A stretch of DNA of 64,000 nucleotides from Candidatus Moraniibacteriota bacterium (GCA_963743885.1 CAVURJ010000001.1:438321-502320); one strand, 5' to 3'; positions 198 through 16,876 are shown, counted from the stretch's first letter. The notes: generated from the letters alone by a model not told the origin. A program made the numbers and translations.

Positions 198-557
198 ATG
201 AAAAAGTGCTCATTTTGTTCCGAGGAAATCCAAGACGAAGCTATCAAATGTCGTCATTGCAAAAGTAATCTAGTAGCGACCGAGACAGTTCAACAGAGCA
301 TTGCAAGTGGTGTCCCTCGCTGCCAGGCATGTGGAGGGGAAATGAAAAAATCAAAAGAGAGTAAGTCGTCTGCCTCAGGCTGTATAGTTCTTATTATCGG
401 CTTGATTTGTCTGGTATTTTTTCCTATTGGAACAATTATTGGAATTATTCTTATCTTAGTTGGGCTGTCTTACGCAACGAAGAAGCGTGGCCTGTGGGTC
501 TGTAAGGGCTGTGGAAGTCAGATTGAGAGGAAGATATCGTGGTTTGAGCTTGGATGA
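198..557 (+). CDS. small zinc-ribbon membrane protein (CxxC...CxxC N-terminus plus a TM helix)
   Basis: ORF track; motifs CSFC...CRHC and CQAC; hydrophobic segment IVLIIGLICLVFFPIGTIIGIILILVGL; same N-terminal architecture as the paralog block at 10.2-16.8 kb. Confidence 0.55.
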   Translation: MKKCSFCSEEIQDEAIKCRHCKSNLVATETVQQSIASGVPRCQACGGEMKKSKESKSSASGCIVLIIGLICLVFFPIGTIIGIILILVGLSYATKKRGLWVCKGCGSQIERKISWFELG

Positions 558-651
558 CAATAACTCGATGTTTTTTTGAGTTATGCACCCGCTTATTAAA
601 TCAGGGTTATTTGGAAAAGTCCGTAGAATCGACTAGTTTCACCCACACTTT

Positions 652-1302
652 ATGGAGCTCTCGGAAGAGCGTATCAAGGAGTTCCAGGAGATATTCAGGA
701 AGGAATATGGCAGAGAATTGACCTGGGAAGAGGCGACGGAATCCGCTAGGAATCTGCTAGGTCTCTACGAGGTCCTTTATGAGGTAGCTGAGAAGGAATT
801 TTTCCGTAAGGAGAGGCTTAAGAAGAGTCCGGGCGGCTTCTATCTGGAAGCCGAGCATACGTATACGTGCTGCGTCTGTGGGCAGGATATGCCAGGAGAG
901 CGGGTGTGGTATGACCAGTATGGTATCAAATGTCCTCCTTGCCAGGCGGCCGTGAAGAAGCGGCTGATACCGGCTGCGTCTTGTAAGAGCCGTGGCAGTC
1001 GGTATTCGATGTGGGAGTTCGATTACTATTTCGGCATCAAGGCTCCGACTATCAGGAAGTTCATCCGGCAGGGGAAGCTGAAATCCCGTATCGTTCCGGG
1101 GTTAGCTGGAGGGAAGCATTTCGAATTCCTGCTTATAAGGGATAATAAAGGGGTTCTTCCGAAAAAACCGAAGAGTTTTCTCGTATGGGAAGGGAAGTTG
1201 GCGCATGTCGAATATGCGCCAGTTTCGTTACCTGATTTCATGGAAGAAGTCCGTGGGAAGGGGGTTTCGGAAAGGCTGGAATTGGATGCCTCGAGTATTT
1301 GA
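652..1302 (+). CDS. hypothetical protein with a Cys4 zinc-finger-like motif (CCVCG...CPPC)
   Basis: 216-aa ORF; its stop overlaps the start region of the next gene (TTGA). Confidence 0.5.
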   Translation: MELSEERIKEFQEIFRKEYGRELTWEEATESARNLLGLYEVLYEVAEKEFFRKERLKKSPGGFYLEAEHTYTCCVCGQDMPGERVWYDQYGIKCPPCQAAVKKRLIPAASCKSRGSRYSMWEFDYYFGIKAPTIRKFIRQGKLKSRIVPGLAGGKHFEFLLIRDNKGVLPKKPKSFLVWEGKLAHVEYAPVSLPDFMEEVRGKGVSERLELDASSI

Positions 1303-1373
1303 TATGTAGCTTTACTTTAGGCATAAAGTGGCATAGTGTAGAGAAGGGCGATAAGAAAGCGCTATCTATTTTT

Positions 1374-4300
1374 ATGGAATCCAGAGACAATCTTTCAAAT
1401 TTCATCAAGTATTGTTTGGGGTATATCAACCTGACTCGTCGGCAGGGGCTTTCTGTTGGCCGGAAAGAGGCTGTTGTTGTCCCTGAAGAATATTTAAGTC
1501 TTGAACATCTTCTTGATGGTGATTTGGATGGGAATATGGGAGAGGTAATTTCTCTCGAAACATTTCATCAGTATGCACCGAAGGATGTCCCCGAAGAGAT
1601 GAGGGGCGCTTACAAACTGGAAAAACAGTTGGCTGAGAAGATAGAAAATATCTATAACAAACATCGTAATGACCAGTTCAGGAAACAGGTCCTTCTTCAG
1701 TTTGGGTTTTTCGAGGTAGAGTTGCCAGTTGAAGAGGGGGTTGCTCCGGCTGGAGATGATGAACAATCCGTTCAGTCGCAGCTCCCTCTTATGCCAGAGG
1801 AGCCAAAAATAAAAGAGCCGAAGCGTGAGAAATATCCGATATTCACTATCCCGGTAAGGATAGAAAAGGATGATGACGGGAAATATGTCCTGTATACAGT
1901 GGATACGGAGTTCCAAGTAAATACGGGGGGTCTTGAAGCTATTTTGGATGAATCCTCGTACTATCAGCTTCTGGAAGAAATCGGGAAATACGAGATGGGA
2001 GAGAGGCTTACGTTGCCGCTTAGCAATCTTGAGATTTTTCGTGAAATCTGGGAAAAAATCGAATCATATCTGAAGTTGGGGGATGCTGTTTTTGATGGAG
2101 ATTCATTCAAGCTGAATGAAATGAATTTGGTCCTCAGTGCGAAAGCAAACTTCTTTTTGTCGGAGGATTTGAGAAAGCTTTTTGAATTTTCGGAAGACGA
2201 GCTTAAGGGTACGGCGCTTGCGACATGGATTAACAATGATGGGCTTGCTAGTAGTGATGAATCTGATGAAGAGGAGAGTTCTTCCGGATTGTATTTCCCG
2301 TTTTCATATGACAAGTATCAATTGCGGATTCTTTCTTTATTGAAAAACAAGGCGTTCATAGTTGAGGGTCCGCCTGGCACCGGAAAGTCGCAGACCATCT
2401 CTAACTTGCTGTGCCATTTGGCGGCAAGTGGAAAAAAAGTTCTTTTCGTCAGCCAGAAAGCGCAGGCGTTAAAGGTTGTAAAGGATAAGCTCAAATCGTT
2501 GAATATCGATTATCTTTTTGGGTATGTTCCGAACCCCGCATCGAATCAATTGAGCGAAATTGACGAGTTTGATGGAATCGCACCGCAACTGCTGGCCATG
2601 AGCTCCCATGTGAGCAAGCTGCAGGACGGTTCGTATGATGGGCTGAGAAAGCGAGAGCCTATCAGTCTTGAGTCGGCCGCAGAGAAGGCAGTCAGATTAA
2701 CGAAAAATATCAATGAGTCGATTGGGGTTCAGAGAGAAGTTGTTAGGCTTAATGAAGAGCTGGTGTCTTTGAATGAGTACGAGATGTCGATAACTGACCT
2801 TGATGCTTTTAAGGAAAGTTTTGGGGACAGTAATTGGAAGCAGATTGTCGCCCTGAAGAAGCGCATCGAGACATTGGTTGAGGGATTGAAGAGGTACAGT
2901 GCCTCAGAATCCAAGAAAGATATGGACGGGGTGTTTGCTGATTTAGACTTTGATGATGCGAAATATTCGTCTGCAATACGGGCGATAAAGGAGGATGTCT
3001 CGCAGACTGCTTATGATAGGCATTCAAAAGTCGTTAGAACAATAAATACGACTGCAAGAAATTTGAGATTAAGAAAGGAACGAGCCGCTTTGCCGAGAGA
3101 AATTATCGATTATATTGACGAGAAATTAAAATCCGATATTTCACGTAGAGAGGCTGTCGATATATTGAGTCCCTTGTTGGATTATTGTGAGTTTTTTGAG
3201 GTGAAAAAGCTTTTGGAGGAGGATAGAGAGAAGCTTGAGGTGTCATTGAATAAGTGCGGCGTATCCAAAGAGGAATTCCAGATAATTAGTGACATGATAT
3301 CGGAAACATCTTCAGAGAAGCTTGAAGAAATAAAAGGGAAGATTGTAAGGGTTCAAGAGATTAAGTCTGAGTTAGAGAAGCTTCAGATTGAAGATTCTCA
3401 GGAGTATTCAAAACAGCTGACAGATCTTTTGGGGGCATCCGATAAGCGCGTAGCTATCTATATACAGAATATCTTAAATAAGAATATCTTTGATAAAAGC
3501 AAAAGCGTAGCTGTAATCCAGAAGATTAGAAGGTTAGCAAAAAGCCTGGGTAAGTCGAAAACTGCATTTAAGACATTTGACCGTTTGCGACGTGACCCGG
3601 ACAATTTTGACACGATACTCGACCTTATCCCGATATGGATAATGGAGCTTGATGATGCAAGCAGAATCATACCGCTTGAGGCGGGGATATTCGATTATGT
3701 GATTCTTGATGAAGCTTCACAGTGCAATGTTGCGTATACCCTTCCGGTGATGTTTAGAAGCAAGCAGGCGATATTTGTTGGTGATAGTGAGCAGATGCGT
3801 GATAGCACGATTATGTTCAAGGCGAACAAGTCGTTTGATGAACTTGCTCGTCGATATCGTATACCGGAAGAATTACAGATAAAAAGTACTGGCGAAACGG
3901 TTCAGTCGGTTCTTGATATTGCCTATCTAAGAGGATTTCAGAGCAGGACACTTACATATCACTACCGCTCTCCAAAGGAGCTGATTGGATTCAGCAACAA
4001 CTACTTTTACACTCCGAAAGGGAAGGAGCTGATATCTCTTAATAGTCATTACCTTACATACAAGGATACCAATAGAATCATGCTCGTTCATGAGGTTGAA
4101 GTGGACTGGGGTCAGGAGATATCTGATTCTTCAAATATAGCTGAGGCAAAGCGCATATTGGAGCTCTTTAGGGAATTACGAAGCGATGAGAGATATAAGG
4201 ATAAGTCTATCGGTATCCTGACGTTTTTCAATGCTCAAGCATCGTGCATACGTGACTTATTTGAAAGTGAAGGATTAAAGGAAGAAGATGATAATTACGT

Positions 4301-4940
4301 GGTAAGTATTATCGATGGAATCCAGGGTGATGAAAAAGATATCATCATATATTCTTTCGTCATAAAGAAGCCGGAGCAGAAGAGGATGTATCAGCCGTTA
4401 ACGGGTGAGGGTGGAGACGTTCAGCGTGATATTAATATGGGTCGTGTGAACGTTGCTTTTTCGAGAGCTCGTCTGCAGGTGCATTGCTTTACCAGTATTC
4501 CCGTCGATGAATTCCCGGAGAATATATGGATAAAGAAATTCTTGCAGTATGCAGGCGAGAACGGAGAAATTGATTTTTATTCGACTGATTTGAAGCCGTT
4601 TGATTCTTATTTTGAAGAGGAATTTTATTCTGTGATAAGGTCAGGGCTAGGGAAGGGATATATTATTCAAAATCAAGTCGGAAGCTGCGGTTTCAAGATT
4701 GACTTTGTTGCTACGAATACAAAAAATGGGAAGAGAATCGCAATTGAATGTGACGGCCCAACTCATTTTAAAGATGAGCTCGATGAGGAACTCGGTATTT
4801 ATGTTGAAAGCGATTATGAAAGACAAGCTGTATTGGAAGCATCAGGATGGAAATTCTATCGTTTGCGATATTCTGATTGGGTTGATGAGAAATTTGAAAA
4901 AGAGAACGTAGTGTCAGATATTAAAAAGCTTTTGATATAG
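1374..4940 (+). CDS. SF1B (Upf1/DNA2-like) helicase with a C-terminal DUF559/Vsr-type endonuclease-like domain; Hhe-like defence protein candidate (alternative TTG start at 1299)
   Basis: Walker A VEGPPGTGKSQT; motif II ILDEASQ; VGDSEQM; YHYRS; GILTFFNAQ; DGIQGDEKDIIIYS; VNVAFSRAR; C-terminal IAIECDGPTHF...WKFYRLRYSDW matches the DUF559/REase fold. Confidence 0.85.
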   Translation: MESRDNLSNFIKYCLGYINLTRRQGLSVGRKEAVVVPEEYLSLEHLLDGDLDGNMGEVISLETFHQYAPKDVPEEMRGAYKLEKQLAEKIENIYNKHRNDQFRKQVLLQFGFFEVELPVEEGVAPAGDDEQSVQSQLPLMPEEPKIKEPKREKYPIFTIPVRIEKDDDGKYVLYTVDTEFQVNTGGLEAILDESSYYQLLEEIGKYEMGERLTLPLSNLEIFREIWEKIESYLKLGDAVFDGDSFKLNEMNLVLSAKANFFLSEDLRKLFEFSEDELKGTALATWINNDGLASSDESDEEESSSGLYFPFSYDKYQLRILSLLKNKAFIVEGPPGTGKSQTISNLLCHLAASGKKVLFVSQKAQALKVVKDKLKSLNIDYLFGYVPNPASNQLSEIDEFDGIAPQLLAMSSHVSKLQDGSYDGLRKREPISLESAAEKAVRLTKNINESIGVQREVVRLNEELVSLNEYEMSITDLDAFKESFGDSNWKQIVALKKRIETLVEGLKRYSASESKKDMDGVFADLDFDDAKYSSAIRAIKEDVSQTAYDRHSKVVRTINTTARNLRLRKERAALPREIIDYIDEKLKSDISRREAVDILSPLLDYCEFFEVKKLLEEDREKLEVSLNKCGVSKEEFQIISDMISETSSEKLEEIKGKIVRVQEIKSELEKLQIEDSQEYSKQLTDLLGASDKRVAIYIQNILNKNIFDKSKSVAVIQKIRRLAKSLGKSKTAFKTFDRLRRDPDNFDTILDLIPIWIMELDDASRIIPLEAGIFDYVILDEASQCNVAYTLPVMFRSKQAIFVGDSEQMRDSTIMFKANKSFDELARRYRIPEELQIKSTGETVQSVLDIAYLRGFQSRTLTYHYRSPKELIGFSNNYFYTPKGKELISLNSHYLTYKDTNRIMLVHEVEVDWGQEISDSSNIAEAKRILELFRELRSDERYKDKSIGILTFFNAQASCIRDLFESEGLKEEDDNYVVSIIDGIQGDEKDIIIYSFVIKKPEQKRMYQPLTGEGGDVQRDINMGRVNVAFSRARLQVHCFTSIPVDEFPENIWIKKFLQYAGENGEIDFYSTDLKPFDSYFEEEFYSVIRSGLGKGYIIQNQVGSCGFKIDFVATNTKNGKRIAIECDGPTHFKDELDEELGIYVESDYERQAVLEASGWKFYRLRYSDWVDEKFEKENVVSDIKKLLI

Positions 4941-4945
4941 ATTCT

Positions 4946-5896
4946 ATGGATTCAGGACAGAAGACTGACTATAGTGGAGTTGTAAAAATAATCCTTGTGA
5001 TAGCGCTTTTCCCGTTTGTCGTTGTTTGGTATGTATGGACGAAGACTAATTGGACAAAGCAAAATAAATGGATTGTGACCGCCGCCGTAGCGGTTCTTTC
5101 TTTGCTTATCATAAATTCTTCTAATGGGAGTGCGACAACTCGACAAGCAGAGGCATGGCGGCAGGCAGAGAAGATTAAACAAGAACCAGTCCAGCAGAGA
5201 TTGGTTGAAAAGGAAGATGTTCGGCAGGAGCCAGAACAACAGGTTATTGCAGAGGTAGCCGAACAAGAAAATGTTCCAGAAGAAGTATTTAAGGTTACTC
5301 GTGTTGTTGATGGCGATACTATACAGCTTGAGAATGGACAGAAGGTGCGGTATATCGGCATCGATACTCCGGAGACTGTCGAACCGAGAAAGCCTGTGCA
5401 ATGTTTTGGAAAAGAGGCAAGCGACAAGAATAAGGAGCTTGTAGAGGGGCAGGAGGTGCGTCTGGTGAAGGACACCTCTGAAACCGATAAATATGACCGG
5501 CTGCTTCGATACGTGTATGTTGGGGATACGTTCGTGAACGACTATCTTGTCCGGAATGGTTATGCTCATTCTTCGAGCTATCCGCCGGATATAAAGAATC
5601 AAGACCAGCTCCGTCTTGCTGAGCAAGAAGCCAGGGAAAATAAGCGGGGATTGTGGGCTGATAATGCCTGTAAGGAAGATGTTGTTGAAGCCCCTATTGT
5701 TTCTGCAGTAGCGACTGGTGCTGCAGCGGCTTCTGTTGTTGAAAGTACGCCATCTTCTGGTGGGGTGGTTAAAAAGAGCACGACTAGTATCTGTCATGCG
5801 CCAGGAACGACTTATTATGCTAAAACAAAGAATTATACCCCTTATAATTCGATAGAGGAGTGCTTGAAGAGCGGGGGAAGATTGCCGAAGAGATAA
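4946..5896 (+). CDS. membrane-anchored thermonuclease (SNase/micrococcal-nuclease family) with a Cys/His-containing C-terminal tail
   Basis: N-terminal TM helix; SNase core VVDGDTIQL...RYIGIDTPE...RLLRYVYV...EARENKRGLW; 5-nt gap after the helicase gene. Confidence 0.85.
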   Translation: MDSGQKTDYSGVVKIILVIALFPFVVVWYVWTKTNWTKQNKWIVTAAVAVLSLLIINSSNGSATTRQAEAWRQAEKIKQEPVQQRLVEKEDVRQEPEQQVIAEVAEQENVPEEVFKVTRVVDGDTIQLENGQKVRYIGIDTPETVEPRKPVQCFGKEASDKNKELVEGQEVRLVKDTSETDKYDRLLRYVYVGDTFVNDYLVRNGYAHSSSYPPDIKNQDQLRLAEQEARENKRGLWADNACKEDVVEAPIVSAVATGAAAASVVESTPSSGGVVKKSTTSICHAPGTTYYAKTKNYTPYNSIEECLKSGGRLPKR

Positions 5897-5911
5897 GGGA
5901 AGGTATTTGTA

Positions 5912-6418
5912 ATGTTGGTGGCGTGGATTCATATGAAGACTAAAGGTTGGTATAAGAAAGTCTTGTTTGAAAATACAAGAGAAGTATTGAGCATTGGGAT
6001 GACTTATGTAATTACCGCTCTTGTTCTTTTACTCTGGAATTTTGCACTTGGTATAAAGTTTGAATGGCATGAAATATCACCATTCTCGGAGCCAAGTGTT
6101 TTTATTCGTATATTTTATAGCGCATTCACCTTTGTCACTCTAGGATGGTTGTTATATACGATTCATTTCTATAAAGTATTACATGATATTCTCGTAAAGA
6201 TTTTTGGCTTATGGAGTGTTTATTCTTTTATCAAGGCAATAGTCTGGGCGTTTTTGATGGCAGTTTCTTATTTTTATGTTGTCCCATGGCTGTTTGATGT
6301 TTTGAATGCTGGGACATCGGTTTTGTTTAATATTGCTAACCTAGTGCTGTATCTTATTCCTCCAGTCGGGATATCTATGATAGTCGGAACGATTTATCTT
6401 TTTTTGAAGAAAAGCTGA
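5912..6418 (+). CDS. polytopic membrane protein, unknown function
   Basis: 168-aa ORF with 4-5 hydrophobic helices; 15-nt gap after the nuclease gene. Confidence 0.55.
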   Translation: MLVAWIHMKTKGWYKKVLFENTREVLSIGMTYVITALVLLLWNFALGIKFEWHEISPFSEPSVFIRIFYSAFTFVTLGWLLYTIHFYKVLHDILVKIFGLWSVYSFIKAIVWAFLMAVSYFYVVPWLFDVLNAGTSVLFNIANLVLYLIPPVGISMIVGTIYLFLKKS

Positions 6419-6475
6419 AGGATTTATATCGGTGGACAACATCTCGTATCATGATAATTCATCCAGTATATTTTT

Positions 6476-8086
6476 ATGATAAATAAAATTCGTATTGTTA
6501 ATTTTCGTTCGATACAAAATTTAGAGATTCACCCGCACAATCTTTGCGTATTGATAGGTCCAAATAGCTCTGGAAAAACAAACGTGCTGAAGGCGTTAGA
6601 TATTTTGCTTGGAGAGACATATCCAACTGAGCGAGCTTTTAGCAAGGATGATTTTTATGGGAGAAATTCAAATTTGGAAATTCTAATACAAGTGTGGTTT
6701 AAAGAGCCGCTTGAAGCTTGTAAATTGACATCTGTAGCTACAAGGAGAAAGGAGCAGTGTTTGATATCGAGCTTGAGACTCACACATACTAAGAATGATA
6801 ACGAATTTTTTCAGACAAAATTTATTGCTATTGACGTTGATGGAAATGAGTACTGGGCGTCTGGAGATGTTAGAGAAAAAGTGAATTTCATATATATACC
6901 ATCCGAGAGGAATTTAGAGAAGCAAATGTCGGTCAGTCAATGGTCTTTGTTGGGGAGAATACTCCGTAAGATTGATGAGAATTTCAGAAAAAATAGCCTT
7001 GGAGACGGCCCTAGTGAGATGGAGGAGGATTTTAGAGAGTCCATGAGTGAGCCGAAGAGAATTCTTGAAGCGGAATTGCCGAATGGCATGTTGAGTTATG
7101 CGAAATTTAAGCAGGTATTTACGGGTATTTGTAAGGAAAATGCAAATGGGTTAGCGAATGATTTTGACCTTGATTTGGAAATTTATGACCCGCTGTTTTA
7201 TTATAAGACGATTCAGCTGCTTGGGAGAGAGGAGATGGGGACCTTTAACATCCATGAGCTTGGGTCGGGGGTGCAAAACCTGGTGTTATTATCGCTGTTT
7301 AGGACTTATGCAAAATTAATGAAGAACAAAGCTGTTCTGGCTATCGAAGAGCCGGAAATCTATTTATATCCACAGGCGCAGAGGCAGCTTTATTCGAACT
7401 TTATTGGCATGGCGTATCCAGAATCTGGTAGTCAGGATGGAACCCAAATAATTTATACGACTCACAATCCAAACTTTGTAGATGCCACTAGGGCGAATGA
7501 GGTTGAAATTCTTCAGAAAAGCGCTTCAAGAGGGACTTGTTTGCTTCCAAAGAGTGAGTATGTAACATCGGAGAGGTCTGAGCAGGATAGGTTTAAGACG
7601 TATGCTCATTTTAATACTGAGAGGAACGAGATATTCTTTGCAAAGAAAGTGCTTCTGGTTGAAGGGGACTCTGACAAGATTATGTGGTCGACTCTTCTTG
7701 GTGAAAAATGGGAAATCCTTATAAATAAAGAAGGTATATCTATTATTGAATGCGGAGGGAAAACCGGAGTTCTGTATTTTATTGGCGTGTGCAGATTTAT
7801 GGGGATAGATTATTTCGCTATATGGGACGCAGATAATGGAGATGATGAGGTTAATGATAGACACGGGCTTTTTAGTGCGACTATCAGTGAAGGAAGGGGA
7901 TTGGAAATTCCTGGTAACCTCGAACAATTTCTATCAAGTAAATTCGATGCAGTTAGTTACCCGCAATTTGTATTTTCACAAAGCAATAAGATTGAACATG
8001 CTTTTGAGTGGGCTAACTCAGTTAATATTTCGGATATCCCAGAAGAATTTCTTTCTATTAAAAATTTTTTCATGTTGGCGGACTGA
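6476..8086 (+). CDS. OLD-family ATP-dependent endonuclease (N-terminal ABC-type ATPase plus C-terminal TOPRIM)
   Basis: Walker A LIGPNSSGKTN; Walker B-like LAIEEPEIYLYPQAQ; TOPRIM signature LLVEGDSDKIMW...IIECGGKTGV. Confidence 0.85.
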   Translation: MINKIRIVNFRSIQNLEIHPHNLCVLIGPNSSGKTNVLKALDILLGETYPTERAFSKDDFYGRNSNLEILIQVWFKEPLEACKLTSVATRRKEQCLISSLRLTHTKNDNEFFQTKFIAIDVDGNEYWASGDVREKVNFIYIPSERNLEKQMSVSQWSLLGRILRKIDENFRKNSLGDGPSEMEEDFRESMSEPKRILEAELPNGMLSYAKFKQVFTGICKENANGLANDFDLDLEIYDPLFYYKTIQLLGREEMGTFNIHELGSGVQNLVLLSLFRTYAKLMKNKAVLAIEEPEIYLYPQAQRQLYSNFIGMAYPESGSQDGTQIIYTTHNPNFVDATRANEVEILQKSASRGTCLLPKSEYVTSERSEQDRFKTYAHFNTERNEIFFAKKVLLVEGDSDKIMWSTLLGEKWEILINKEGISIIECGGKTGVLYFIGVCRFMGIDYFAIWDADNGDDEVNDRHGLFSATISEGRGLEIPGNLEQFLSSKFDAVSYPQFVFSQSNKIEHAFEWANSVNISDIPEEFLSIKNFFMLAD

Positions 8087-8092
8087 CCCCTT

Positions 8093-8875
8093 ATGTTTAA
8101 GAGTCATATTGAATATGTAGATGTTGACTTATCTGTTTTTAATGATGCTGAGAATAAGAATTTTCGGTCCATGTTGAGTTTTTTTAAAGATGAGGTTTTC
8201 TTTTTTAAGAGGCTGAGTGCTTTGTTTGTAGCATCAAATAAGAAGGTTGGAGACGAATACATCGTTATTATTGAATTATTTCAGCTTTGTAATCATAATT
8301 TAGCTTTTTCTTTCCTTAATATCCTTCGAGGTCATTTTAAAGAACCATGTATCATAAGTAGAAACTCGATTGAGGCTGTGGCTCAGGCGACTATAATAAA
8401 GGAGAATCTTCGATTTAATAATGAAACGTGGTGTAGGGGTGAAAAGGGAAAAGAAAATATTAAGGCATTTAAGGAGTTATTTAAAAAAGATAAATTTAGG
8501 AATTGTAAAAACAAGGATGAATTGAAGGTTTTTTTCAGAATGTTTTCATCATTTGGTCACTCGAACATACTTAATGGGATACATCGCACAAAAAAAGAAG
8601 GAGATAAGTTACTATTTGGTTTTTTCGATGTAGAAGTTGATAATCTTGAAGCCTGGATGGTGAGGTATCTGAATTATATTATCGTGGTTTATAGTATAAT
8701 TTTGGAGGAATTTTCTGATATTTTTCGTGATTTCGGTATAGCCTCTCCCGATGACGTAAAGAAGCTAAGGGAGGAGCATAGGGTGTATATGGAGACCAGA
8801 CGAGGGCTACTGAGTCAATTTGGGAAATATGATTTTGTAGAAGAATATGAGGACGTAAATAAAAAAGAAGGCTAG
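8093..8875 (+). CDS. hypothetical cytoplasmic protein, no recognisable domain; co-operonic with the OLD nuclease
   Basis: 260-aa ORF starting 6 nt after the OLD stop; AT-rich codon usage as in the rest of the island. Confidence 0.55.
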   Translation: MFKSHIEYVDVDLSVFNDAENKNFRSMLSFFKDEVFFFKRLSALFVASNKKVGDEYIVIIELFQLCNHNLAFSFLNILRGHFKEPCIISRNSIEAVAQATIIKENLRFNNETWCRGEKGKENIKAFKELFKKDKFRNCKNKDELKVFFRMFSSFGHSNILNGIHRTKKEGDKLLFGFFDVEVDNLEAWMVRYLNYIIVVYSIILEEFSDIFRDFGIASPDDVKKLREEHRVYMETRRGLLSQFGKYDFVEEYEDVNKKEG

Positions 8876-8887
8876 TATAAGAGATGT

Positions 8888-9868
8888 ATGAAATATCAAG
8901 TACTTGCCGGAATTAATGGTCCGTTTTTGCCGGATTCTTATAAAGTTTCTGATATTTTTTTGTTTCGGAAACCGCCTTTTTCTCTTCAAGCAAAATTTTC
9001 TTCGGAAATTACAGATGAGCAACCCTTGGTAGATAGGGGTGTTAATCATCGAATTCGATTTAATGCGAAAAAGCCACGTTTTAGAAAATTTAGCTCCGAA
9101 CACTGCATTGAGATTATCTTGGAAAGCGAAAGCCCTCATTGGGCCATTGAATTTGCAAAATTAAGGATAGAACAGTTAGTTGAAGCATTGACTGTGGCTT
9201 CGTTTAATGTGGATAAGGTGCATCCACGTACTGGGCGTAGGTTACTGCATGGTATTAATGATATTTATCAATATCAGATAGAGGGAGTATTTGATGAGAA
9301 GGGTATCCCTGTTGATGGTGCCGATATAGAAGGGACAGCTATTAATTTTTTCCCCGAAAAATTTCCTACTGATTTCGAACAATTAGCGAATGATATTTTA
9401 AGGTGTAATGATACAACCTTGATAAAGGCGATGTTTTATCTAAAGAGAGCGAAAATGTTTTCATATGAGTATTATTCCGAATTGGAAGTGTTCCTCAATT
9501 CGATGAAATGTATAGAACTTCTTGTTAACAGGTTTTATCCTCATGGCTTGGAGAAAAAAGATCATAAGAAAGCTTCTTTCAAAGAAAAGCTGAATGGGTT
9601 TGATAGTAATCCAGGCGTTGCAAGTATACTTGGGATTGATAGTAATTATAATAGTTTGACACAAGACGGTTGGGACTGTAGGAACACCATGGACATGGCG
9701 CATGCTAGTGAATATTTTAAGTTAATTGCTCAGCCATTTCCAGAGGAGATAAATCGTGTAGCGTATTATTTCGTTTTGAAATACGTACAATATTTAAAGA
9801 AAAATCAACCAGATGATTTTTGGGAAATGAAAGACTTGGATGATGAATGGTGGGAAATGTTTAGGTAA
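8888..9868 (+). CDS. hypothetical protein, no recognisable domain; third gene of the OLD-linked trio
   Basis: 326-aa ORF 12 nt after the previous stop; AAGAGA 5 nt upstream of the ATG. Confidence 0.55.
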   Translation: MKYQVLAGINGPFLPDSYKVSDIFLFRKPPFSLQAKFSSEITDEQPLVDRGVNHRIRFNAKKPRFRKFSSEHCIEIILESESPHWAIEFAKLRIEQLVEALTVASFNVDKVHPRTGRRLLHGINDIYQYQIEGVFDEKGIPVDGADIEGTAINFFPEKFPTDFEQLANDILRCNDTTLIKAMFYLKRAKMFSYEYYSELEVFLNSMKCIELLVNRFYPHGLEKKDHKKASFKEKLNGFDSNPGVASILGIDSNYNSLTQDGWDCRNTMDMAHASEYFKLIAQPFPEEINRVAYYFVLKYVQYLKKNQPDDFWEMKDLDDEWWEMFR

Positions 9869-10094: not shown

Positions 10095-10152
10095 AAGGAC
10101 TAACCGCAAAAGATTTATCTGCCGTAAGGTAGATTTCGATTCTATATTGTTT
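10095..10152. repeat. 58-bp direct repeat, copy 1 (AAGGACTAACCGCAAAAGATTTATCTGCCGtAAGGTAGATTTCGATTCTATATTGTTT)
   Basis: Identical except one T/C to 16819-16876; ORF-track entries 9952..10170 and 16667..16885 share the peptide NRKRFICRKVDFDSILF only because they translate this repeat. Confidence 0.85.
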
Positions 10153-10159
10153 GCAAAAT

Positions 10160-10183
10160 CCAGCCTGTAATGGGCTGGTTTTT
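10160..10183 (+). terminator. rho-independent terminator-like hairpin (CCAGCC-TGTAAT-GGGCTGG plus T5)
   Basis: Perfect 6-7 bp stem followed by TTTTT immediately after the first 58-bp direct-repeat copy. Confidence 0.5.
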
Positions 10184-10235
10184 GCTATGGAAAGGGTATA
10201 TAATCAGGCCAGATATTAATTCGATAGCGACTATT

Positions 10236-11012
10236 ATGAGGAACTGCGAGAAGTGCGGAGCTGCCAATGAGGCAGATGTTCGTTTTTGTGTTAATTGCGG
10301 GAATAGGCTTACGGACAATCCTGCTCCTATTGCACCGAGACCAGTTGCGCATATGGATATGCCTGCTCCGAAAGCGGTATCTCCGGCTCAGCACAAAGCA
10401 CCTGGGAACCAATATTGCGAGAAGTGTGGAGCTGCCAATGAGATGGACGTCCGTTTTTGCGTGAATTGCGGGAGCGCTATGGCATCGGTTGGAAATCCTA
10501 GTTTTTCGAATGGACAAGGGAGCATGAATAGGATGTATCAGTCGGCGCAGCCGATAGCGGATCGATATGTGTCCGATGAAGAGATGGTGCACCTTCGATC
10601 CGTACCGAACCCAGTGATGGTGATCTGGGAGAGTCTCCTGTTTCCGGAAAAAATGATCGCTATCGGGGCAATCCTGAATTGTCTGGTAGCCCTCTTCTGG
10701 GTGGCTGATGAGTACCTGTCCGTGTTTATGGCTATCCTCTACTTCGCTACCATGGCGGCCTCCCTGGTGCTGATCCATCTTTCAAGGGGGATCTCTCTGT
10801 TGAAGAAAGCCGAACTGTCTCGCTGGCAGGTTGCTATTGGCGCCTTCTGGCTATCTTGGCTGCTGAATATCGTCTTTAGGGGTACCGAGTATTATGGTGA
10901 TGTGTATGCTCTTTTCGTCTTCAATGCCATCACTTCCATCGCCATGTTTTCCGGGGCGATTATGTTGCAGGGGACGATACTGCAGCATATCTTCCAGCAG
11001 AAGAATAAATAA
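10236..11012 (+). CDS. double zinc-ribbon membrane protein (two CxxCG...CxxCG modules plus multiple TM helices)
   Basis: MRNCEKCGAANEADVRFCVNCG and CEKCGAANEMDVRFCVNCG; C-terminal half hydrophobic. Confidence 0.6.
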   Translation: MRNCEKCGAANEADVRFCVNCGNRLTDNPAPIAPRPVAHMDMPAPKAVSPAQHKAPGNQYCEKCGAANEMDVRFCVNCGSAMASVGNPSFSNGQGSMNRMYQSAQPIADRYVSDEEMVHLRSVPNPVMVIWESLLFPEKMIAIGAILNCLVALFWVADEYLSVFMAILYFATMAASLVLIHLSRGISLLKKAELSRWQVAIGAFWLSWLLNIVFRGTEYYGDVYALFVFNAITSIAMFSGAIMLQGTILQHIFQQKNK

Positions 11013-11022
11013 TTTTAAAACT

Positions 11023-12315
11023 ATGTTCTGCTCGAGCTGTGGTACGGAAAATTCAGGGGGAGCGAACTTCTGCAAGAATTGCGGAGTGCCTATTAGTGGC
11101 AACCAACTCGAAGATTTTCCCCTCATAAAGGAAAATCCGCTTTTTAAAAATAAGAAAAAAAGCGCAGGTCTTTTAGTTTTAGCCGTGTTTGTTTGTGGTG
11201 GCGCTTTGTTTAGTTATGACTATTATGATAAAAATCATTCTTATGTCAGATATACCGATTCTGCGACAGATAATACACCTTCTGCAAAAGCTACAATTCC
11301 AGCATCTGATGATAACTTCACAATAGACAAAAATGGCACGCTGACAAAATACATTGGATCTGACAGAAATGTTGTTATTCCTGATGGAGTGAAAAGTATT
11401 GGCAGCAATGCGTTTATCGGAATAGTAACGAATATCGGTAGTGATGGGAAGTTTACTGTTGGAGGTGACAACATTACCAGTGTTGTCATTCCAAATAGCG
11501 TCACAAGCATCGCAAGCGAAGCATTTTCCAATGGATGCAGAGAGATCAAGGAAATAGTCATTCCAAATAGCGTCACAAGTATCGGGGATGAGGCCTTCAG
11601 TCCTTGCAGATCGCTTGTCAGACTGACTTTGCCAAAAACTATTGCAAGTGTCGGGAATAAAGTTTTTGCAAATTCATTATTAAAAGAACCGGTAATTTTA
11701 AATAATGGCAAAAGACTTGTCTATGCTCCGCATTTTGATGAATCATATGTCATACCGGACGGAGTGGAGGATATTTCCGGAGCATTTGCAACTTATGTAG
11801 TTGGCGGTGGAAATCTTTCAAACATAACGATTCCGAATAGCGTCAAGACTATCGGCGATTCTGCTTTTAGTGGCTGTTATGGACTCACAGATATATCAAT
11901 ACCAAATTCAGTCAAGACTATCGGCGCTAGCGTTTTTTATGATACGCATATCACCAATTTGGTTTTTCCGGATAGTATCATTAGTTTGGGAAAAAATGTA
12001 TTGGGATGTGAAATCTCCGGCGGCGGCAGTGATATCACAGGCTTGACGATTCCAGGAAGCATCAAAAATATCGAAGAATCAACATTTAGCAATTGTTCGA
12101 ATCTCAAACGAGTAATCATATCTGACGGAGTGAAAAGTATCGGAGAGAGTGCTTTTTTTATGGGAGGCCTCACTAGTATTACAATTCCAAAAAGCGTAAC
12201 TGATATTCATTATAATGCGTTTGGAAAAAACAAAAAACTTGAAATAAGCGGTTATAAAAATTCCTATGCCGAAGAATTTGCTAAGACTTATGGGCATCCC
12301 TTTAGCGCTTTATAA
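11023..12315 (+). CDS. zinc-ribbon-anchored surface protein with BspA-type leucine-rich repeats
   Basis: N-terminus MFCSSCGTENSGGANFCKNCG then a TM helix; repeated IPNSVTSIG/IPNSVKTIG...AF..C..L units typical of BspA-like LRRs. Confidence 0.65.
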   Translation: MFCSSCGTENSGGANFCKNCGVPISGNQLEDFPLIKENPLFKNKKKSAGLLVLAVFVCGGALFSYDYYDKNHSYVRYTDSATDNTPSAKATIPASDDNFTIDKNGTLTKYIGSDRNVVIPDGVKSIGSNAFIGIVTNIGSDGKFTVGGDNITSVVIPNSVTSIASEAFSNGCREIKEIVIPNSVTSIGDEAFSPCRSLVRLTLPKTIASVGNKVFANSLLKEPVILNNGKRLVYAPHFDESYVIPDGVEDISGAFATYVVGGGNLSNITIPNSVKTIGDSAFSGCYGLTDISIPNSVKTIGASVFYDTHITNLVFPDSIISLGKNVLGCEISGGGSDITGLTIPGSIKNIEESTFSNCSNLKRVIISDGVKSIGESAFFMGGLTSITIPKSVTDIHYNAFGKNKKLEISGYKNSYAEEFAKTYGHPFSAL

Positions 12316-12343
12316 GTAAATTTTATAAATATTAATAAAAATT

Positions 12344-14848: not shown

Positions 14849-14851
14849 CAT

Positions 14852-15040
14852 ATGTTTTGTAAGAATTGCGGCATAGAAAACATGGAGGTAGCTAGGTTTT
14901 GCAAGAATTGTGGGACCGTTTTGAATGACATTGGATCAACCAAATGTGTAGCAAAGCCATCGGATCAAACCTTGGGATGGAGTGGATGGATAGGCCTGAT
15001 CCTTTTTCTCGCAGTATTTATATTGCGGTTTATTATGTAA
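14852..15040 (+). CDS. small zinc-ribbon membrane protein
   Basis: MFCKNCGIENMEVARFCKNCG plus a C-terminal TM helix; 62 aa. Confidence 0.5.
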   Translation: MFCKNCGIENMEVARFCKNCGTVLNDIGSTKCVAKPSDQTLGWSGWIGLILFLAVFILRFIM

Positions 15041-15106
15041 TCGGTGATGACTTTGTCTATATTGGTTCGAAAATCAAGGTTGATGAATAAATTTAATTAG
15101 AAGCCT

Positions 15107-15850
15107 ATGCTCTGTCAAAATTGCGGAAGCGAAAACTCAAACGAAGCAAAGTTCTGCAAGAATTGCGGCAAGGTTTTGACGGGAAAAAAAAGCCTGTCGG
15201 ATAGAGCTTCTGAATTCATCAAAACTCCCACGGGGAAATTTACGGTAGGGATATTGGTTGTCTTTGTAGTTGGCGGAGTAGTTGCAAGAGGGTTATCCAA
15301 GAGCAAACAGATCGAAACTTCGGCAATTAGCGCCTCTGCCCAGCAAGAGCAACAAATTACGGATCCTCTGAGTGAAATTGTCGCTAACCCTTCTGATGAT
15401 AATGCACTGGCTGAACAAAAAAATAATAAAACAAAAAAATCTAAAAGTGATTCAAAAAATCCCGATATATACATAGATCCTGGCACGGGGGAGAAGGTAG
15501 TTACAATACCTGGGAAAACACCGGAGAACACTAATGGGCACAATATAACGATGCTTGGATTCGCTCATTTAGTGAATGATTATGGCATGACATTCGAACA
15601 AGTGAAGAAACTCCAATCGGAGTTTGAGGACTATTCTTCAAAAAAAGATGCTTCATTCCATGAACTTAGCCTAACTTTAAAAGAAATAAGAACAACTGTA
15701 GATTCATCCAATGGTACTGCAGAGTTGAGTATACCAATAGTACTTGATCGTAAAGAAAAAGAAATTGCAAAAGTTTCTTATTTTGGTATAGATAATCCAA
15801 CGCTTACTATTTATAATTCTGACGATGTTCAGGTGTATAGTTCTAAATAA
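15107..15850 (+). CDS. zinc-ribbon-anchored membrane protein
   Basis: MLCQNCGSENSNEAKFCKNCG plus TM; the 5' about 75 nt are near-identical to the gene at 15895. Confidence 0.6.
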   Translation: MLCQNCGSENSNEAKFCKNCGKVLTGKKSLSDRASEFIKTPTGKFTVGILVVFVVGGVVARGLSKSKQIETSAISASAQQEQQITDPLSEIVANPSDDNALAEQKNNKTKKSKSDSKNPDIYIDPGTGEKVVTIPGKTPENTNGHNITMLGFAHLVNDYGMTFEQVKKLQSEFEDYSSKKDASFHELSLTLKEIRTTVDSSNGTAELSIPIVLDRKEKEIAKVSYFGIDNPTLTIYNSDDVQVYSSK

Positions 15851-15894
15851 TTTAAGATGCTATTAGTAAGTTGGTGGTGTTTAATCTGAGGCCT

Positions 15895-16827
15895 ATGCTC
15901 TGTCAAAATTGCGGAAGCGAAAACTCGAATGAGGCCAAGTTCTGCAAGAATTGCGGAAATCAATTTGGTAATGAGCAATTAAAAAATATCACACAGAAAA
16001 CAAGCGTGTTTTTTAAGAACGATAAAAAAATCGTTATTTGGATATTGGTTATTGTTGGCTTGTTTTTGGCTGCTGGAATCAGTTGGGGTATGTTCTTAAC
16101 ATCTCGTTCTAATTCAAATAATTCAATTGTCACAAATTTATTTGATTCACAAAAAGATACAAACACTGAAACCTTTTTTGAAAAAGCCTCTGAACTAACA
16201 AATTTGTTTAGTACCTGCGCAACAATGACATCAGGTCAAAGCTGTACTTTTGGTGGTCTCACTTATGGTGCAGTCAAGGCGGAAGACGGGAGAATATGGT
16301 TGGACAGAAATCTTGGTGCAACACGAGTGGCCAAAAAATCTGAAGATAAAGAGGCGTATGGTTGGTATTTTCAATGGGGGCGTGCTGCTGATGGTCATCA
16401 GATTCCAACAAGCGGAGCCACGGATAAGCTTAGCACAACCGATACCCCGAATCACGACAAGTTTATTGAGAGTGGCTATCCTTATAATTGGCGCAGTACG
16501 GAGAATGATAATCTTTGGCAAGAAGTAGGTGGGATTAATAATCCATGCCCTGGAGGATGGCGGGTACCAACAGCAAGCGAATGTAAAAAATTATTTTCCT
16601 CTGCTAATATTACCAACTCTTCAACAGCCTTCAGCTCATCATTGAAATTACCTTGGGCTGGATTCCGTGTATTTGCTGATATGTTTTATTATAGTTTTGG
16701 CGGATTCTGGTCTAGTAATTTTTCTGGTGACCAGGCTTACGTTGCGGGCTTTGATTTATCCAAGGCAGCTTATGATAGCCGCCAATGGCCCGTCAGAGGG
16801 TGGCCAGTTCGTTGTATTAAGGACTAA
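15895..16827 (+). CDS. zinc-ribbon-anchored membrane protein with a Fib_succ_major ectodomain
   Basis: MLCQNCGSENSNEAKFCKNCG plus TM; C-terminal ...GRIWLDRNLGA...PCPGGWRVPT...WPVRCIKD. Confidence 0.65.
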   Translation: MLCQNCGSENSNEAKFCKNCGNQFGNEQLKNITQKTSVFFKNDKKIVIWILVIVGLFLAAGISWGMFLTSRSNSNNSIVTNLFDSQKDTNTETFFEKASELTNLFSTCATMTSGQSCTFGGLTYGAVKAEDGRIWLDRNLGATRVAKKSEDKEAYGWYFQWGRAADGHQIPTSGATDKLSTTDTPNHDKFIESGYPYNWRSTENDNLWQEVGGINNPCPGGWRVPTASECKKLFSSANITNSSTAFSSSLKLPWAGFRVFADMFYYSFGGFWSSNFSGDQAYVAGFDLSKAAYDSRQWPVRGWPVRCIKD

Positions 16828-16876
16828 CCGCAAAAGATTTATCTGCCGCAAGGTAGATTTCGATTCTATATTGTTT
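16819..16876. repeat. 58-bp direct repeat, copy 2; overlaps the last codons of gene 15895..16827 and marks the low-GC/high-GC boundary
   Basis: 57/58 identity with 10095-10152; followed by nested palindromes at 16882-16925 and a perfect 18-bp palindrome at 16970-16987. Confidence 0.85.

What the first reader, a model, noticed from the sequence alone, without database searches (positions are those of the whole stretch)
1299..6418. Hhe-like helicase-endonuclease fusion in an operon with a membrane thermonuclease and a membrane protein
The 1,200-aa protein combines a DUF4011-like N-terminus, a complete SF1B Upf1-like helicase and a C-terminal DUF559/Vsr-like endonuclease fold. From memory, this architecture was reported as the single-gene anti-phage system Hhe. 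Here it is followed at 5 nt by a membrane-anchored SNase-family nuclease and at 15 nt by a polytopic membrane protein. This three-gene arrangement (cytoplasmic helicase-nuclease, extracytoplasmic nuclease, membrane protein) is not one I recognise as described.
Basis: partly seen in the sequence, partly recalled or inferred. Interest (0 to 1): 0.65.

Follow-up and report, generated by a model that had tools for sequence, protein, structure and literature searches.

The report
Helicase-nuclease defence gene with chance neighbours
The large gene is a shortened relative of the known single-gene anti-phage helicase-nucleases (Hhe, ProA), lying in a fast-changing low-GC island of a probable Patescibacteria genome; the membrane nuclease and membrane protein after it are separate island genes, not a conserved three-gene system.

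Summary
The three genes are real and tightly packed on the + strand: helicase-nuclease 1374-4940, membrane-anchored SNase 4946-5896, and a 4-TM protein 5933-6418.

The helicase has a complete SF1B Upf1-like core and a C-terminal MTES_1575/DUF559 nuclease. No DUF4011 is detectable. It matches the curated Hhe and ProA models and PADLOC PDC-S37 only over its C-terminal ~730 residues, far below the two curated cut-offs. It belongs to a widespread, unnamed ~1,190-aa family, found mostly in Patescibacteria.

The trio is not conserved.
- None of 65 other loci with a family member has the membrane gene.
- Only one (L127) has an SNase directly downstream, and that SNase is non-orthologous (40% identity).
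- None of 54 loci carrying the membrane-protein family has the SNase or this helicase nearby.
- Seven other contexts of the SNase family lack both partners. There the SNase abuts various NTPase, nuclease or methyltransferase genes, often near serine recombinases.
- Two near-identical relatives (98% DNA identity) diverge exactly at the helicase stop codon.

Best reading: an autonomous Hhe/ProA-like defence gene in a defence-island mosaic. A helicase-SNase link remains weakly possible. Defence activity and extracytoplasmic SNase location are inferred, not shown.

The parts
1374..4940 (+). Helicase-nuclease gene, 1188 aa. An alternative TTG start at 1299 would give 1213 aa. Member of an unnamed ~1,190-aa family related to Hhe, ProA and PDC-S37.
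   Evidence: ORF. Identical to database protein P0001, with 119 further homologues listed at 49-63% identity. Pfam. PADLOC. NCBIfam.
1374..2333 (+). N-terminal domain (aa 1-320). Conserved within the family, with no recognisable family assignment; not detectably DUF4011.
   Evidence: Invariant residues. No Pfam hit at E<=10. hhalign against a DUF4011 protein not significant. AF2 local pLDDT roughly 70-88 for aa 30-260.
2367..2390 (+). Walker A / motif I, GPPGTGKS (aa 332-339).
   Evidence: Invariant or nearly invariant in 28 homologues. P-loop Pfam hits at residues 321-388.
2541..3623 (+). All-helical insertion of about 360 aa (aa 390-750) between motifs I/Ia and motif II.
   Evidence: AF2 secondary structure, with pLDDT mostly 73-90 for aa 431-680. 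No Pfam hit. DUF4011 proteins have a comparable insertion, with the P-loop near residue 680 and motif II near 1300.
3708..4481 (+). Helicase motifs II-VI: DEASQ at aa 779-783, then GDSEQM, HYRS, GIQGDEKD and NVAFSRAR. Includes the AAA_12 domain at aa 855-1036.
4611..4895 (+). C-terminal PD-(D/E)xK nuclease of the MTES_1575 / DUF559 (Vsr-like) type, aa 1080-1174.
   Evidence: MTES_1575 62.5 bits and DUF559 22.7 bits. D1110, E1125, D1127 and H1131 invariant. Aligned to the MTES_1575 region of a DUF4011 protein.
4946..5896 (+). Membrane-anchored thermonuclease (SNase), 316 aa. Two TM segments (aa 12-30, 43-61), a Q/E-rich linker, the SNase domain (aa 133-239, nt 5342-5662), and a small Cys-containing C-terminal domain (aa ~270-315).
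   Evidence: PF00565 97.3 bits. NCBIfam NucI 120.6 bits (below the 250 cut-off) and a weak 'sunset' hit. Hydropathy and K-rich loop. Canonical DGDT...RYIGIDTPE...RLLRYV motifs are visible in the translation.
5933..6418 (+). 4-TM protein, 161 aa (168 aa if it starts at ATG 5912). Member of a small orphan family known almost only from Patescibacteria.
   Evidence: 103 homologues at 43-70% identity, none with a Pfam domain. Alignment. 121 clusters at 50% identity among 1.84 billion proteins. AF2 pLDDT 82.9. No PDB fold match.
6476..8086 (+). OLD-family ATPase/TOPRIM nuclease, 536 aa. A separate defence gene; not part of the proposed trio, but part of the same island.
   Evidence: AAA_15 150 bits and OLD-like_TOPRIM 64.6 bits. 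PADLOC Old/AriA/GajA. 60% identical to the OLD gene four genes downstream of the helicase in L063.
8093..9868 (+). Two genes of unknown function (260 aa and 326 aa) packed directly behind OLD.
   Evidence: ORFs. No Pfam or NCBIfam hits. Also present on the identical 5.8-kb contig.
652..1302 (+). Upstream 216-aa gene with a weak HTH_17-like match. Homologues recur next to the 4-TM gene in other islands.
   Evidence: E=0.01. tblastn hits in L076 and L082 just downstream of the 4-TM gene. The L082 homologue has HTH_17 at E=3.7e-5.

Best explanation
Window 1-16.9 kb is a low-GC variable (defence) island in a small genome, probably Patescibacteria.

Gene 1374-4940 encodes a self-sufficient helicase-nuclease. 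It is a compact (1188 aa) relative of the single-gene anti-phage proteins Hhe and ProA/PDC-S37. Inferred mechanism, by analogy with SF1B helicases and Hhe: an ATP-driven 5'->3' translocase loads on foreign or aberrant nucleic acid, and its C-terminal Vsr/DUF559-type PD-(D/E)xK nuclease cuts it. The family-specific N-terminal domain and the long helical insertion would supply recognition or regulation.

The next two genes are independent island genes.
- The SNase belongs to a Patescibacterial family of membrane-anchored, outward-facing Ca-type thermonucleases. These recur at the edges of variable cargo on elements bearing serine recombinases. They most plausibly degrade extracellular DNA, for nucleotide scavenging, DNA uptake processing or exclusion of incoming DNA.
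- The 4-TM protein belongs to an orphan family that is almost always the closely spaced last gene after a hypervariable upstream gene.

Shown: domain content, motif conservation, family relationships and the neighbourhood statistics. Inferred: defence activity, substrate, topology and the SNase's role.
For: Island: GC is 0.35-0.45 for 1-16 kb, against 0.49-0.575 over most of the rest (one bin at 0.45).

Helicase-nuclease identity. Hhe is described as a single gene with helicase and nuclease domains, in the SF1_Upf1 group.

Autonomy of the helicase:
- 62 genome loci plus L063, L127 and L128 carry family members. None has the 4-TM gene.
- In the 62 genome loci, SNase genes within 10 kb occur in 3-4 of 62, none directly adjacent.
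- The commonest close downstream gene is a DUF2779/PD-(D/E)xK/RNase_H_2 nuclease (9-10 loci). The rest are heterogeneous.
- A large serine recombinase lies within 5 kb in 14 loci.
- L001 and L063 are 98% identical in DNA through the helicase and diverge right after its stop codon, where L001 has a 2.2-kb OLD gene insertion. A second swap follows after xseB.
- The four members of the window's subclade have four different downstream genes.

Independence of the 4-TM gene:
- 54 loci carry it; none has the SNase or this helicase nearby.
- In 44 of 46 loci it is preceded by a same-strand ORF, usually within about 30 nt. That ORF ranges from 88 to 1954 aa and includes TPR-PIN, UvrD-type, HsdS, AAA_15 and STAND proteins.

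Independence of the SNase: seven other contexts were examined. It is followed by nSTAND5, an 816-aa protein plus DUF4238, KAP NTPase plus trypsin, a 798-aa protein, a 169-aa protein, Mrr_cat or an N6_N4 methyltransferase. Serine recombinases are nearby in four.

Composition is a mosaic: helicase 0.418, SNase 0.460, 4-TM 0.344, OLD 0.390.
Against: - The three genes are co-directional with 5- and 15/36-nt gaps, and no terminator-like site lies in the gaps. Co-transcription is therefore likely.
- L127, whose helicase is 62.6% identical, also has a TM-anchored SNase 13 nt downstream. With about one SNase per 300 kb in the helicase flanks, two direct adjacencies in 66 loci has a nominal chance of roughly 0.02. 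That estimate is my own. It ignores the concentration of these SNases in islands.
- L029 has a TM-anchored HNH-like protein carrying the same C-terminal domain just upstream of its helicase.
- No family member has been tested for defence, and the family is absent from curated defence models at full length.
Confidence: 0.6

Rival explanations
1. Two-gene module. The helicase-nuclease and a membrane-anchored SNase work together in this subclade, for example an outside nuclease destroying DNA at or after entry and an inside helicase-nuclease dealing with what gets through. The 4-TM gene would be a fortuitous neighbour.
For: - Helicase followed directly by a TM-SNase occurs twice in the four-member subclade: the window (5-nt gap) and L127 (13-nt gap).
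- The two SNases are non-orthologous: 40% identical, with more than 120 clusters closer to the window's. That would imply independent recruitment.
- L124 has a PIF1 helicase 21 nt upstream of a window-type SNase.
- L029 has a TM-anchored HNH-like protein just upstream of a helicase homologue.
Against: - None of the 62 genome loci has an adjacent SNase.
- L001 and L063, the closest relatives of L127, lack it.
- TM-SNases of this family abut many unrelated genes, so adjacency to any one island gene is expected now and then.
- The inferred topology puts the two enzymes in different compartments.
Confidence: 0.12
2. One reading: a three-gene defence system made of cytoplasmic helicase-nuclease, extracytoplasmic SNase and polytopic membrane protein.
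For: Tight co-directional spacing without terminator-like sites. The same arrangement appears on an identical 5.8-kb contig from another sample, though that is the same sequence and not independent.
Against: - The 4-TM gene is never next to a helicase homologue (0 of 65) or an SNase (0 of 54, and 0 of 7 other contexts).
- Each gene family has its own, different set of neighbours.
- GC differs by up to 0.12 between the genes.
Confidence: 0.04
3. The helicase-nuclease is not an immune gene. It would be a DNA repair, recombination or maintenance enzyme of mobile elements (Dna2/AddAB-like end processing), sometimes paired with a DUF2779 Cas4-like/RNaseH-like nuclease.
For: - DUF2779/PD-(D/E)xK nuclease genes lie within 5 kb in 12 of 62 loci.
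- Serine recombinases are nearby in 14 loci and tyrosine integrases in 6.
- xseA/xseB are adjacent in L001 and L063.
- Dna2 is among the solved relatives.
- No experimental defence data exist for this family.
Against: - The best named matches are anti-phage families: ProA, PDC-S37, Hhe and Mokosh MkoA/MkoC.
- It sits among OLD, RM-like and other defence-type genes, with rapid gene turnover.
- Distribution across phyla is patchy.
- It is essentially absent from viral contigs.
Confidence: 0.15

Closest known systems
Hhe (single-gene anti-phage helicase-nuclease; NCBIfam NF042953, PADLOC PDLC02194)
   Same: - SF1B Upf1-like helicase core
- Long insertion between motif I and motif II
- C-terminal MTES_1575/DUF559 (Vsr-like) nuclease
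- About 30-33% identity over the last ~420-870 residues
- Stands alone as a single large gene in most loci
   Different: - No detectable DUF4011 domain
- 1188 aa, against profile lengths of 1797-1911 positions
- Scores 176.5 bits against a 2000-bit cut-off
- The N-terminal 320 residues have no match
- Untested experimentally
ProA (NCBIfam NF058533 'anti-phage protein ProA') and PADLOC candidate PDC-S37
   Same: These are the best-scoring named models: ProA 268 bits, E=1.3e-79; PDC-S37 276 bits, E=1.4e-82. They cover residues ~452-1183, that is part of the insertion, helicase motifs II-VI and the nuclease.
   Different: - Far below the 1500-bit ProA cut-off
- The best-scoring matched stretch covers profile positions 995-1698 of 1903 (ProA) and 641-1338 of 1550 (PDC-S37)
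- The window protein lacks their N-terminal region and their C-terminal extension; related plasmid proteins are annotated DUF3320 or DUF4011
- I found no paper describing ProA or PDC-S37
Staphylococcal thermonuclease family (PF00565; NucI, YncB-type membrane or secreted nucleases)
   Same: Full SNase domain with the canonical Ca-binding and catalytic motifs. N-terminal membrane anchor with the catalytic domain predicted outside.
   Different: - 120.6 bits against a 250-bit cut-off for NucI, so not an equivalog
- Two TM segments, a long acidic/Q-rich linker and a small Cys-containing C-terminal domain
- Located in variable islands next to defence-type genes
Extracellular DNases carried by mobile elements that block natural transformation (e.g. 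IdeA of a Vibrio cholerae SXT-type ICE). Recalled from memory, not checked here.
   Same: A nuclease facing outward, carried by an integrative element, acting on incoming DNA.
   Different: Different nuclease family. No functional data here. The analogy is only a lead for the SNase's role.

Membership tests
Hhe | N-terminal DUF4011 domain (PF13195) | tested here: not met
   No hit at E<=0.01 for the whole protein, nor at E<=10 for residues 1-320. The same search finds DUF4011 at 145 bits in a bona fide member. hhalign of the N-terminal profile against that member gives E=0.23-0.35.
Hhe | SF1B (Upf1-like) helicase core with intact motifs | tested here: met
   AAA_11 and AAA_12. Motifs I-VI invariant in 28 homologues. 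IGHMBP2, Sen1, Upf1 and Dna2 are the best PDB sequence matches.
Hhe | C-terminal Vsr/DUF559-type PD-(D/E)xK endonuclease | tested here: met
   MTES_1575 62.5 bits (cut-off 38.2) and DUF559 22.7 bits (cut-off 20.6). Catalytic D/E/D/H residues invariant.
Hhe | Full-length match to the curated equivalog model above its cut-off | tested here: not met
   NF042953: 176.5 bits against a 2000-bit cut-off; best-scoring stretch at profile positions 915-1669 of 1797. PADLOC Hhe: best-scoring stretch at profile positions 1355-1775 of 1911.
Hhe | Single gene sufficient for anti-phage protection | not testable with these tools
   Needs cloning and phage challenge. Genomic evidence only shows that the gene moves and persists without fixed partners.
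ProA / PDC-S37 | Full-length match above the curated cut-off | tested here: not met
   NF058533: 268.2 bits against a 1500-bit cut-off, profile positions 995-1698 of 1903. PDC-S37: profile positions 641-1338 of 1550.
Thermonuclease / SNase (PF00565) | SNase domain above the gathering score, with catalytic motifs | tested here: met
   97.3 bits against a cut-off of 21, covering the full profile 1-107. DGDT, RYIGIDTPE and RLLRYV are visible in the translation.
Thermonuclease / SNase (PF00565) | Extracytoplasmic location | tested here: inconclusive
   Two hydrophobic segments with a K-rich connecting loop predict an outward-facing catalytic domain. Relatives carry the extracellular Excalibur domain. 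This is hydropathy only, with no dedicated topology predictor or experiment.
Proposed three-gene system (helicase-nuclease + SNase + 4-TM protein) | Conserved co-occurrence of the three genes among homologues | tested here: not met
   - 4-TM gene: 0 of 65 helicase loci
- SNase directly adjacent to the helicase: 1 of 65
- SNase or helicase family near the 4-TM gene: 0 of 54 loci
- Helicase or 4-TM gene in other SNase contexts: 0 of 7

Proposed three-gene system (helicase-nuclease + SNase + 4-TM protein) | Co-transcription as one operon | tested here: inconclusive
   Gaps of 5 and 15/36 nt with no terminator-like site in them. The same holds for the whole run 198-9868, and promoter-like sites are no more frequent than in shuffled sequence.

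The most novel reading that the evidence does not exclude
The membrane-anchored SNase family may be a shared outward-facing partner of many different cytoplasmic NTPase or nuclease defence genes in Patescibacteria. Candidate partners seen here are this helicase-nuclease, PIF1, nSTAND, KAP NTPase and Mrr. That would make a two-compartment defence, or DNA-scavenging-coupled immunity, in organisms that depend on imported nucleotides.

In parallel, the orphan 4-TM family, always the closely spaced last gene behind a hypervariable island gene, may be a common membrane component of such cassettes rather than a passive flank.
Probability: 0.1. Interest if true: 0.6.

Novelty: new variant of a known kind. 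Interest (0 to 1): 0.3.

Why it matters

What remains useful:
- A large (hundreds to thousands of members), strongly conserved and uncharacterised family of compact Hhe/ProA-like helicase-nucleases, centred on Patescibacteria but spread across many phyla. It would be a smaller model for how this class of single-gene defences recognises its target.
- Direct evidence, from the 98%-identical pair L001/L063, that the position just 3' of this gene is an insertion hotspot for other defence genes.
- Two recurrent island-associated membrane gene families in Patescibacteria (the TM-SNase and the orphan 4-TM protein) whose roles are unknown.

Tried and rejected
- AlphaFold2 of the full helicase with 28 homologues gave a poor model (mean pLDDT 60.6, helicase core mostly below 50). 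The Foldseek search of the PDB with it returned nothing with E<=0.001, so no structural conclusion is drawn.
- The 4-TM model was good (pLDDT 82.9) but had no PDB match. Rare longer family members gave no Pfam clue.
- Literature searches for PDC-S37 and ProA found no description.
- Scans of viral contigs found no 4-TM homologue and only one distant helicase relative, so a phage origin is not supported.
- The exact look-up of the window's own helicase gave no contig. The Patescibacteria assignment rests on the names of homologues and the 652-kb contig size.
- No direct or inverted repeats flank the SNase/4-TM pair.
- L029 and L033 first looked like SNase neighbours in the profile search. They match only the TM/linker and C-terminal domains, not the nuclease.
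- A shared backbone between L127 and the SNase-bearing elements was not confirmed: the 382-aa and 384/369-aa proteins are unrelated.

Full report
**What is in the sequence**

The first ~16.9 kb of the window has GC 0.35-0.45. Most of the remainder is 0.49-0.575, with one bin at 0.45. From 198 to 9868 all credible genes lie on the + strand with short gaps:

| Coordinates | Gene |
|---|---|
| 198-557 | Zn-ribbon/TM protein |
| 652-1302 | 216-aa protein with a weak HTH_17 match |
| 1374-4940 | Large helicase-nuclease (TTG at 1299 is an alternative start) |
| 4946-5896 | SNase |
| 5912/5933-6418 | Small polytopic membrane protein |
| 6476-8086 | OLD-family nuclease |
| 8093-8875, 8888-9868 | Two unknown genes |

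Homologues of the membrane protein start at the Met encoded at 5933, which makes the second gap 36 nt. A consensus scan found no terminator-like site in these gaps. Promoter-like sites are no more frequent than in shuffled sequence.

**The large protein**

Pfam gives AAA_11, AAA_12 and several P-loop families at residues 321-388. At the C-terminus it gives MTES_1575 (62.5 bits) and DUF559 (22.7 bits, just above its cut-off).

In an alignment of 28 homologues all SF1B motifs are invariant or nearly so:
- Walker A: GPPGTGKS
- Motif II: DEASQ
- Further helicase motifs: GDSEQM, HYRS, GIQGDEKD, NVAFSRAR
- Nuclease signature: D1110, E1125-C-D1127-G-P-x-H1131

. The best solved relatives by sequence are IGHMBP2, Sen1, Upf1, Dna2 and ZNFX1. 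The enzyme therefore looks active as both helicase and nuclease.

Motif I and motif II are about 440 residues apart. A ~360-residue region within that stretch is predicted to be all-helical.

The DUF4011 claim fails.
- There is no hit at E<=0.01 for the whole protein.
- There is none at E<=10 for residues 1-320.
- The same library finds DUF4011 at 145 bits in a real DUF4011 protein from a Pseudoalteromonas plasmid.
- Profile-sequence comparison of the family with that protein aligns only residues 749-1172 (33% identity, E=2e-37).
- The N-terminal sub-profile gives E=0.23-0.35.

**Relation to named families**

| Model | Score | Curated cut-off | Profile positions (best-scoring stretch) |
|---|---|---|---|
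| PADLOC PDC-S37 | E=1.4e-82 | none | 641-1338 of 1550 |
| PADLOC Hhe | E=5.8e-39 | none | 1355-1775 of 1911 |
| NCBIfam ProA | 268 bits | 1500 bits | 995-1698 of 1903 |
| NCBIfam Hhe | 176.5 bits | 2000 bits | 915-1669 of 1797 |

. PADLOC also matches the Mokosh helicases MkoA and MkoC.

Hhe is described in the literature as a single gene with helicase and nuclease domains, placed in the SF1_Upf1 group. I found no paper on ProA or PDC-S37.

The window protein is thus a relative of these proteins, not a member. It shares the helicase-with-insertion plus Vsr-like nuclease plan. It is 600-700 residues shorter, has a different N-terminal domain and lacks the C-terminal extension.

Its own family is large and well conserved. 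At least 120 clusters at 49-63% identity have lengths of mostly ~1,170-1,200 aa. They are mostly unnamed, or called 'AAA domain-containing' or 'DUF559 domain-containing' protein, and come mainly from Patescibacteria MAGs. Members also occur in MAGs labelled Gammaproteobacteria, Planctomycetales, Nitrospirae, Omnitrophota, Chlamydiia and others.

**Is the three-gene arrangement conserved? Helicase side**

I fetched 62 genome loci with family members, and three more through exact look-ups (L063, L127, L128).
- No locus has a homologue of the 4-TM protein, by tblastn or by a family HMM.
- In the 62 genome loci, true SNase genes occur within 10 kb in 3-4 loci, always kilobases away.
- Among 35 close same-strand downstream genes none is an SNase. 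The commonest is a ~490-aa DUF2779/PD-(D/E)xK/RNase_H_2 nuclease. Two are DUF2130 proteins and the rest are heterogeneous.
- A large serine recombinase lies within 5 kb in 14 loci.

The one exception is L127. Its helicase is 62.6% identical to the window's. It is followed after 13 nt by a TM-anchored SNase with an Excalibur domain, then by a soluble protein with a weak PLD-like match.

That SNase is only 40% identical to the window's. More than 120 database clusters are closer to the window's SNase. L127's enzyme groups with a sister subgroup of the same TM-SNase family.

A neighbour-joining tree places the window, L127, L001 and L063 in one subclade. Their downstream genes all differ:
- Window: SNase
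- L127: SNase-Excalibur
- L001: a 658-aa OLD-like gene
- L063: xseA/xseB

L001 and L063 are 98% identical in DNA through the helicase, and homology breaks directly after its stop codon. L001 carries a 2.2-kb OLD gene insertion there. A second replacement follows after xseB, where L063 has an OLD gene 60% identical to the window's. The 3' junction of this gene is therefore a site of rapid gene gain and loss.

**Membrane-protein side**

The 4-TM protein belongs to a compact orphan family.
- 103 homologues at 43-70% identity, none with a Pfam domain.
- 121 clusters at 50% identity among 1.84 billion proteins, nearly all 155-195 aa.
- A confident model (pLDDT 82.9) without PDB relatives.

In 54 metagenome loci none has an SNase or this helicase family. 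One locus has a distant SF1 helicase kilobases upstream.

In 44 of 46 loci with upstream sequence, the 4-TM gene is preceded by a same-strand ORF, usually overlapping it or within about 30 nt. That ORF ranges from 88 to 1954 aa. Examples include TPR-PIN proteins, UvrD-type helicases, a type I specificity subunit, an AAA_15 ATPase and a STAND NTPase, with HsdR/YgjP further upstream in several loci. Its position behind the SNase in the window is one more instance of that pattern, not a specific pairing.

**SNase side**

The SNase has a full PF00565 domain with canonical motifs. It has two N-terminal hydrophobic segments separated by a K-rich loop, which predicts an outward-facing enzyme. It ends in a small Cys-containing C-terminal domain, with a weak 'sunset' match.

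Seven other contexts of this TM-SNase family were examined:

| Context (protein, locus) | Gene after the SNase | Other neighbours |
|---|---|---|
| P0226, L118 | nSTAND5-like NTPase, 1286-1290 aa | NERD further downstream |
| P0229, L119/L120 | 816-aa protein, then DUF4238 | serine recombinase upstream |
| P0233, L121/L122 | KAP NTPase, then trypsin-like protease | Toprim primase-like gene upstream |
| P0237, L124 | 798-aa protein | PIF1 helicase 21 nt upstream; serine recombinase |
| P0241, L125 | 169-aa protein, then 419-aa protein and DUF4238 | serine recombinase upstream |
| P0236, L126 | Mrr_cat nuclease | serine recombinase downstream |
| P0252, L130 | N6_N4 methyltransferase | GIY-YIG upstream; NERD downstream |

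Serine recombinases are nearby in four of the seven. None has the helicase family or the 4-TM gene. The only other copy of the window's arrangement is a 100%-identical 5.8-kb contig, which is the same sequence from another sample.

**Weighing it**

Tight spacing does not single out the trio. The same spacing continues through OLD and the two unknown genes. About 37% of same-strand gene pairs in the window have gaps of 20 nt or less (crude gene calls). GC differs strongly between the genes: 0.418, 0.460 and 0.344.

The single recurrence of helicase followed by TM-SNase is worth noting. With roughly one SNase per 300 kb in the helicase flanks, two direct adjacencies in 66 loci has a nominal probability near 0.02. 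This is my estimate. These SNases are concentrated in the same kind of variable island as the helicase, so the true chance is higher. I give a functional helicase-SNase pairing about 0.12 and the full three-gene system about 0.04.

**Most likely function**

The helicase-nuclease most likely acts alone as a nucleic-acid-targeting defence enzyme of the Hhe/ProA type. It would translocate 5'->3' with ATP and cut with the Vsr-like domain. The N-terminal domain and helical insertion would handle recognition or control. This is inference from family relationships.

The SNase most likely degrades extracellular DNA. The 4-TM protein's role is unknown. A non-defence role for the helicase in DNA repair or element maintenance cannot be excluded (about 0.15), given the recurrent DUF2779 nuclease and recombinase neighbours.

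**Verdict**

- The novel three-gene system is not supported.
- Novelty: a new variant of a known kind of helicase-nuclease.
- Interest: modest.

Noticed in passing
window 10095-10152 and 16819-16876: A 58-nt direct repeat, 98% identical, brackets a 6.7-kb block of five genes for Zn-ribbon/TM proteins with LRR_5, RCC1 and Fib_succ_major domains (10170-16827). The right copy lies at the end of the low-GC region. It could be an att-like pair or a duplicated 5' region.
   Followed up: no
L064-L117 (54 metagenome loci); window 5933-6418: The orphan 4-TM family is nearly always the closely spaced last gene behind a hypervariable upstream gene of 88-1954 aa, many of defence type. Downstream it is followed by a conserved 99-102-aa gene in 10 loci, or a reverse-strand 106-119-aa gene in 7. 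That fits either a hotspot anchor or a shared cassette component.
   Followed up: partly
L118-L126, L130: The TM-anchored SNase family sits directly next to a different NTPase, nuclease or methyltransferase gene in most contexts examined (nSTAND5, KAP NTPase, PIF1, Mrr_cat, N6_N4 methyltransferase, unknown 798-816-aa proteins). Serine recombinases are often nearby.
   Followed up: partly
L001 13606-15848 versus L063 9441/9433: Two loci 98% identical in DNA differ by a 2.2-kb insertion of an OLD-family gene placed exactly after the helicase stop codon, and by a second gene swap after xseB. This is a clean example of defence-gene turnover.
   Followed up: yes
L006, L013, L014, L015, L049, L052, L057 and others, just downstream of the helicase homologue: A ~490-aa DUF2779 / PD-(D/E)xK (Cas4-like) / RNase_H_2 nuclease is the most frequent close downstream partner of the helicase family: 12 of 62 loci within 5 kb, 9-10 of them directly adjacent. 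It is absent from the window. It may form a two-gene variant of the system.
   Followed up: partly
window 4952-5932, - strand: A 326-aa antisense ORF spans the entire SNase gene. It is conserved in relatives only as the mirror image of the SNase coding sequence, so it is probably not a gene.
   Followed up: partly
L029 8900-9931: Directly upstream of a helicase homologue lies a TM-anchored protein with an HNH-like motif. It has the same small Cys-containing C-terminal domain as the window's SNase (KKS..ICH..G..YY....F.PY.S...CL.SGGRLPK).
   Followed up: no
window 6476-9868: An OLD-family nuclease (AAA_15 + TOPRIM) is followed at 6 and 12 nt by two genes of unknown function (260 and 326 aa). 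The OLD gene is 60% identical to one near the helicase in L063, but the two followers are not found there.
   Followed up: no
window 652-1302; L076 8856-9371; L082 8677-9303: The 216-aa gene upstream of the helicase (weak HTH_17) has homologues immediately downstream of the 4-TM gene in other islands. Weak N-terminal matches also occur near SNase-bearing elements (L119, L120, L124). It may be a regulator or excisionase-like gene of these islands.
   Followed up: no
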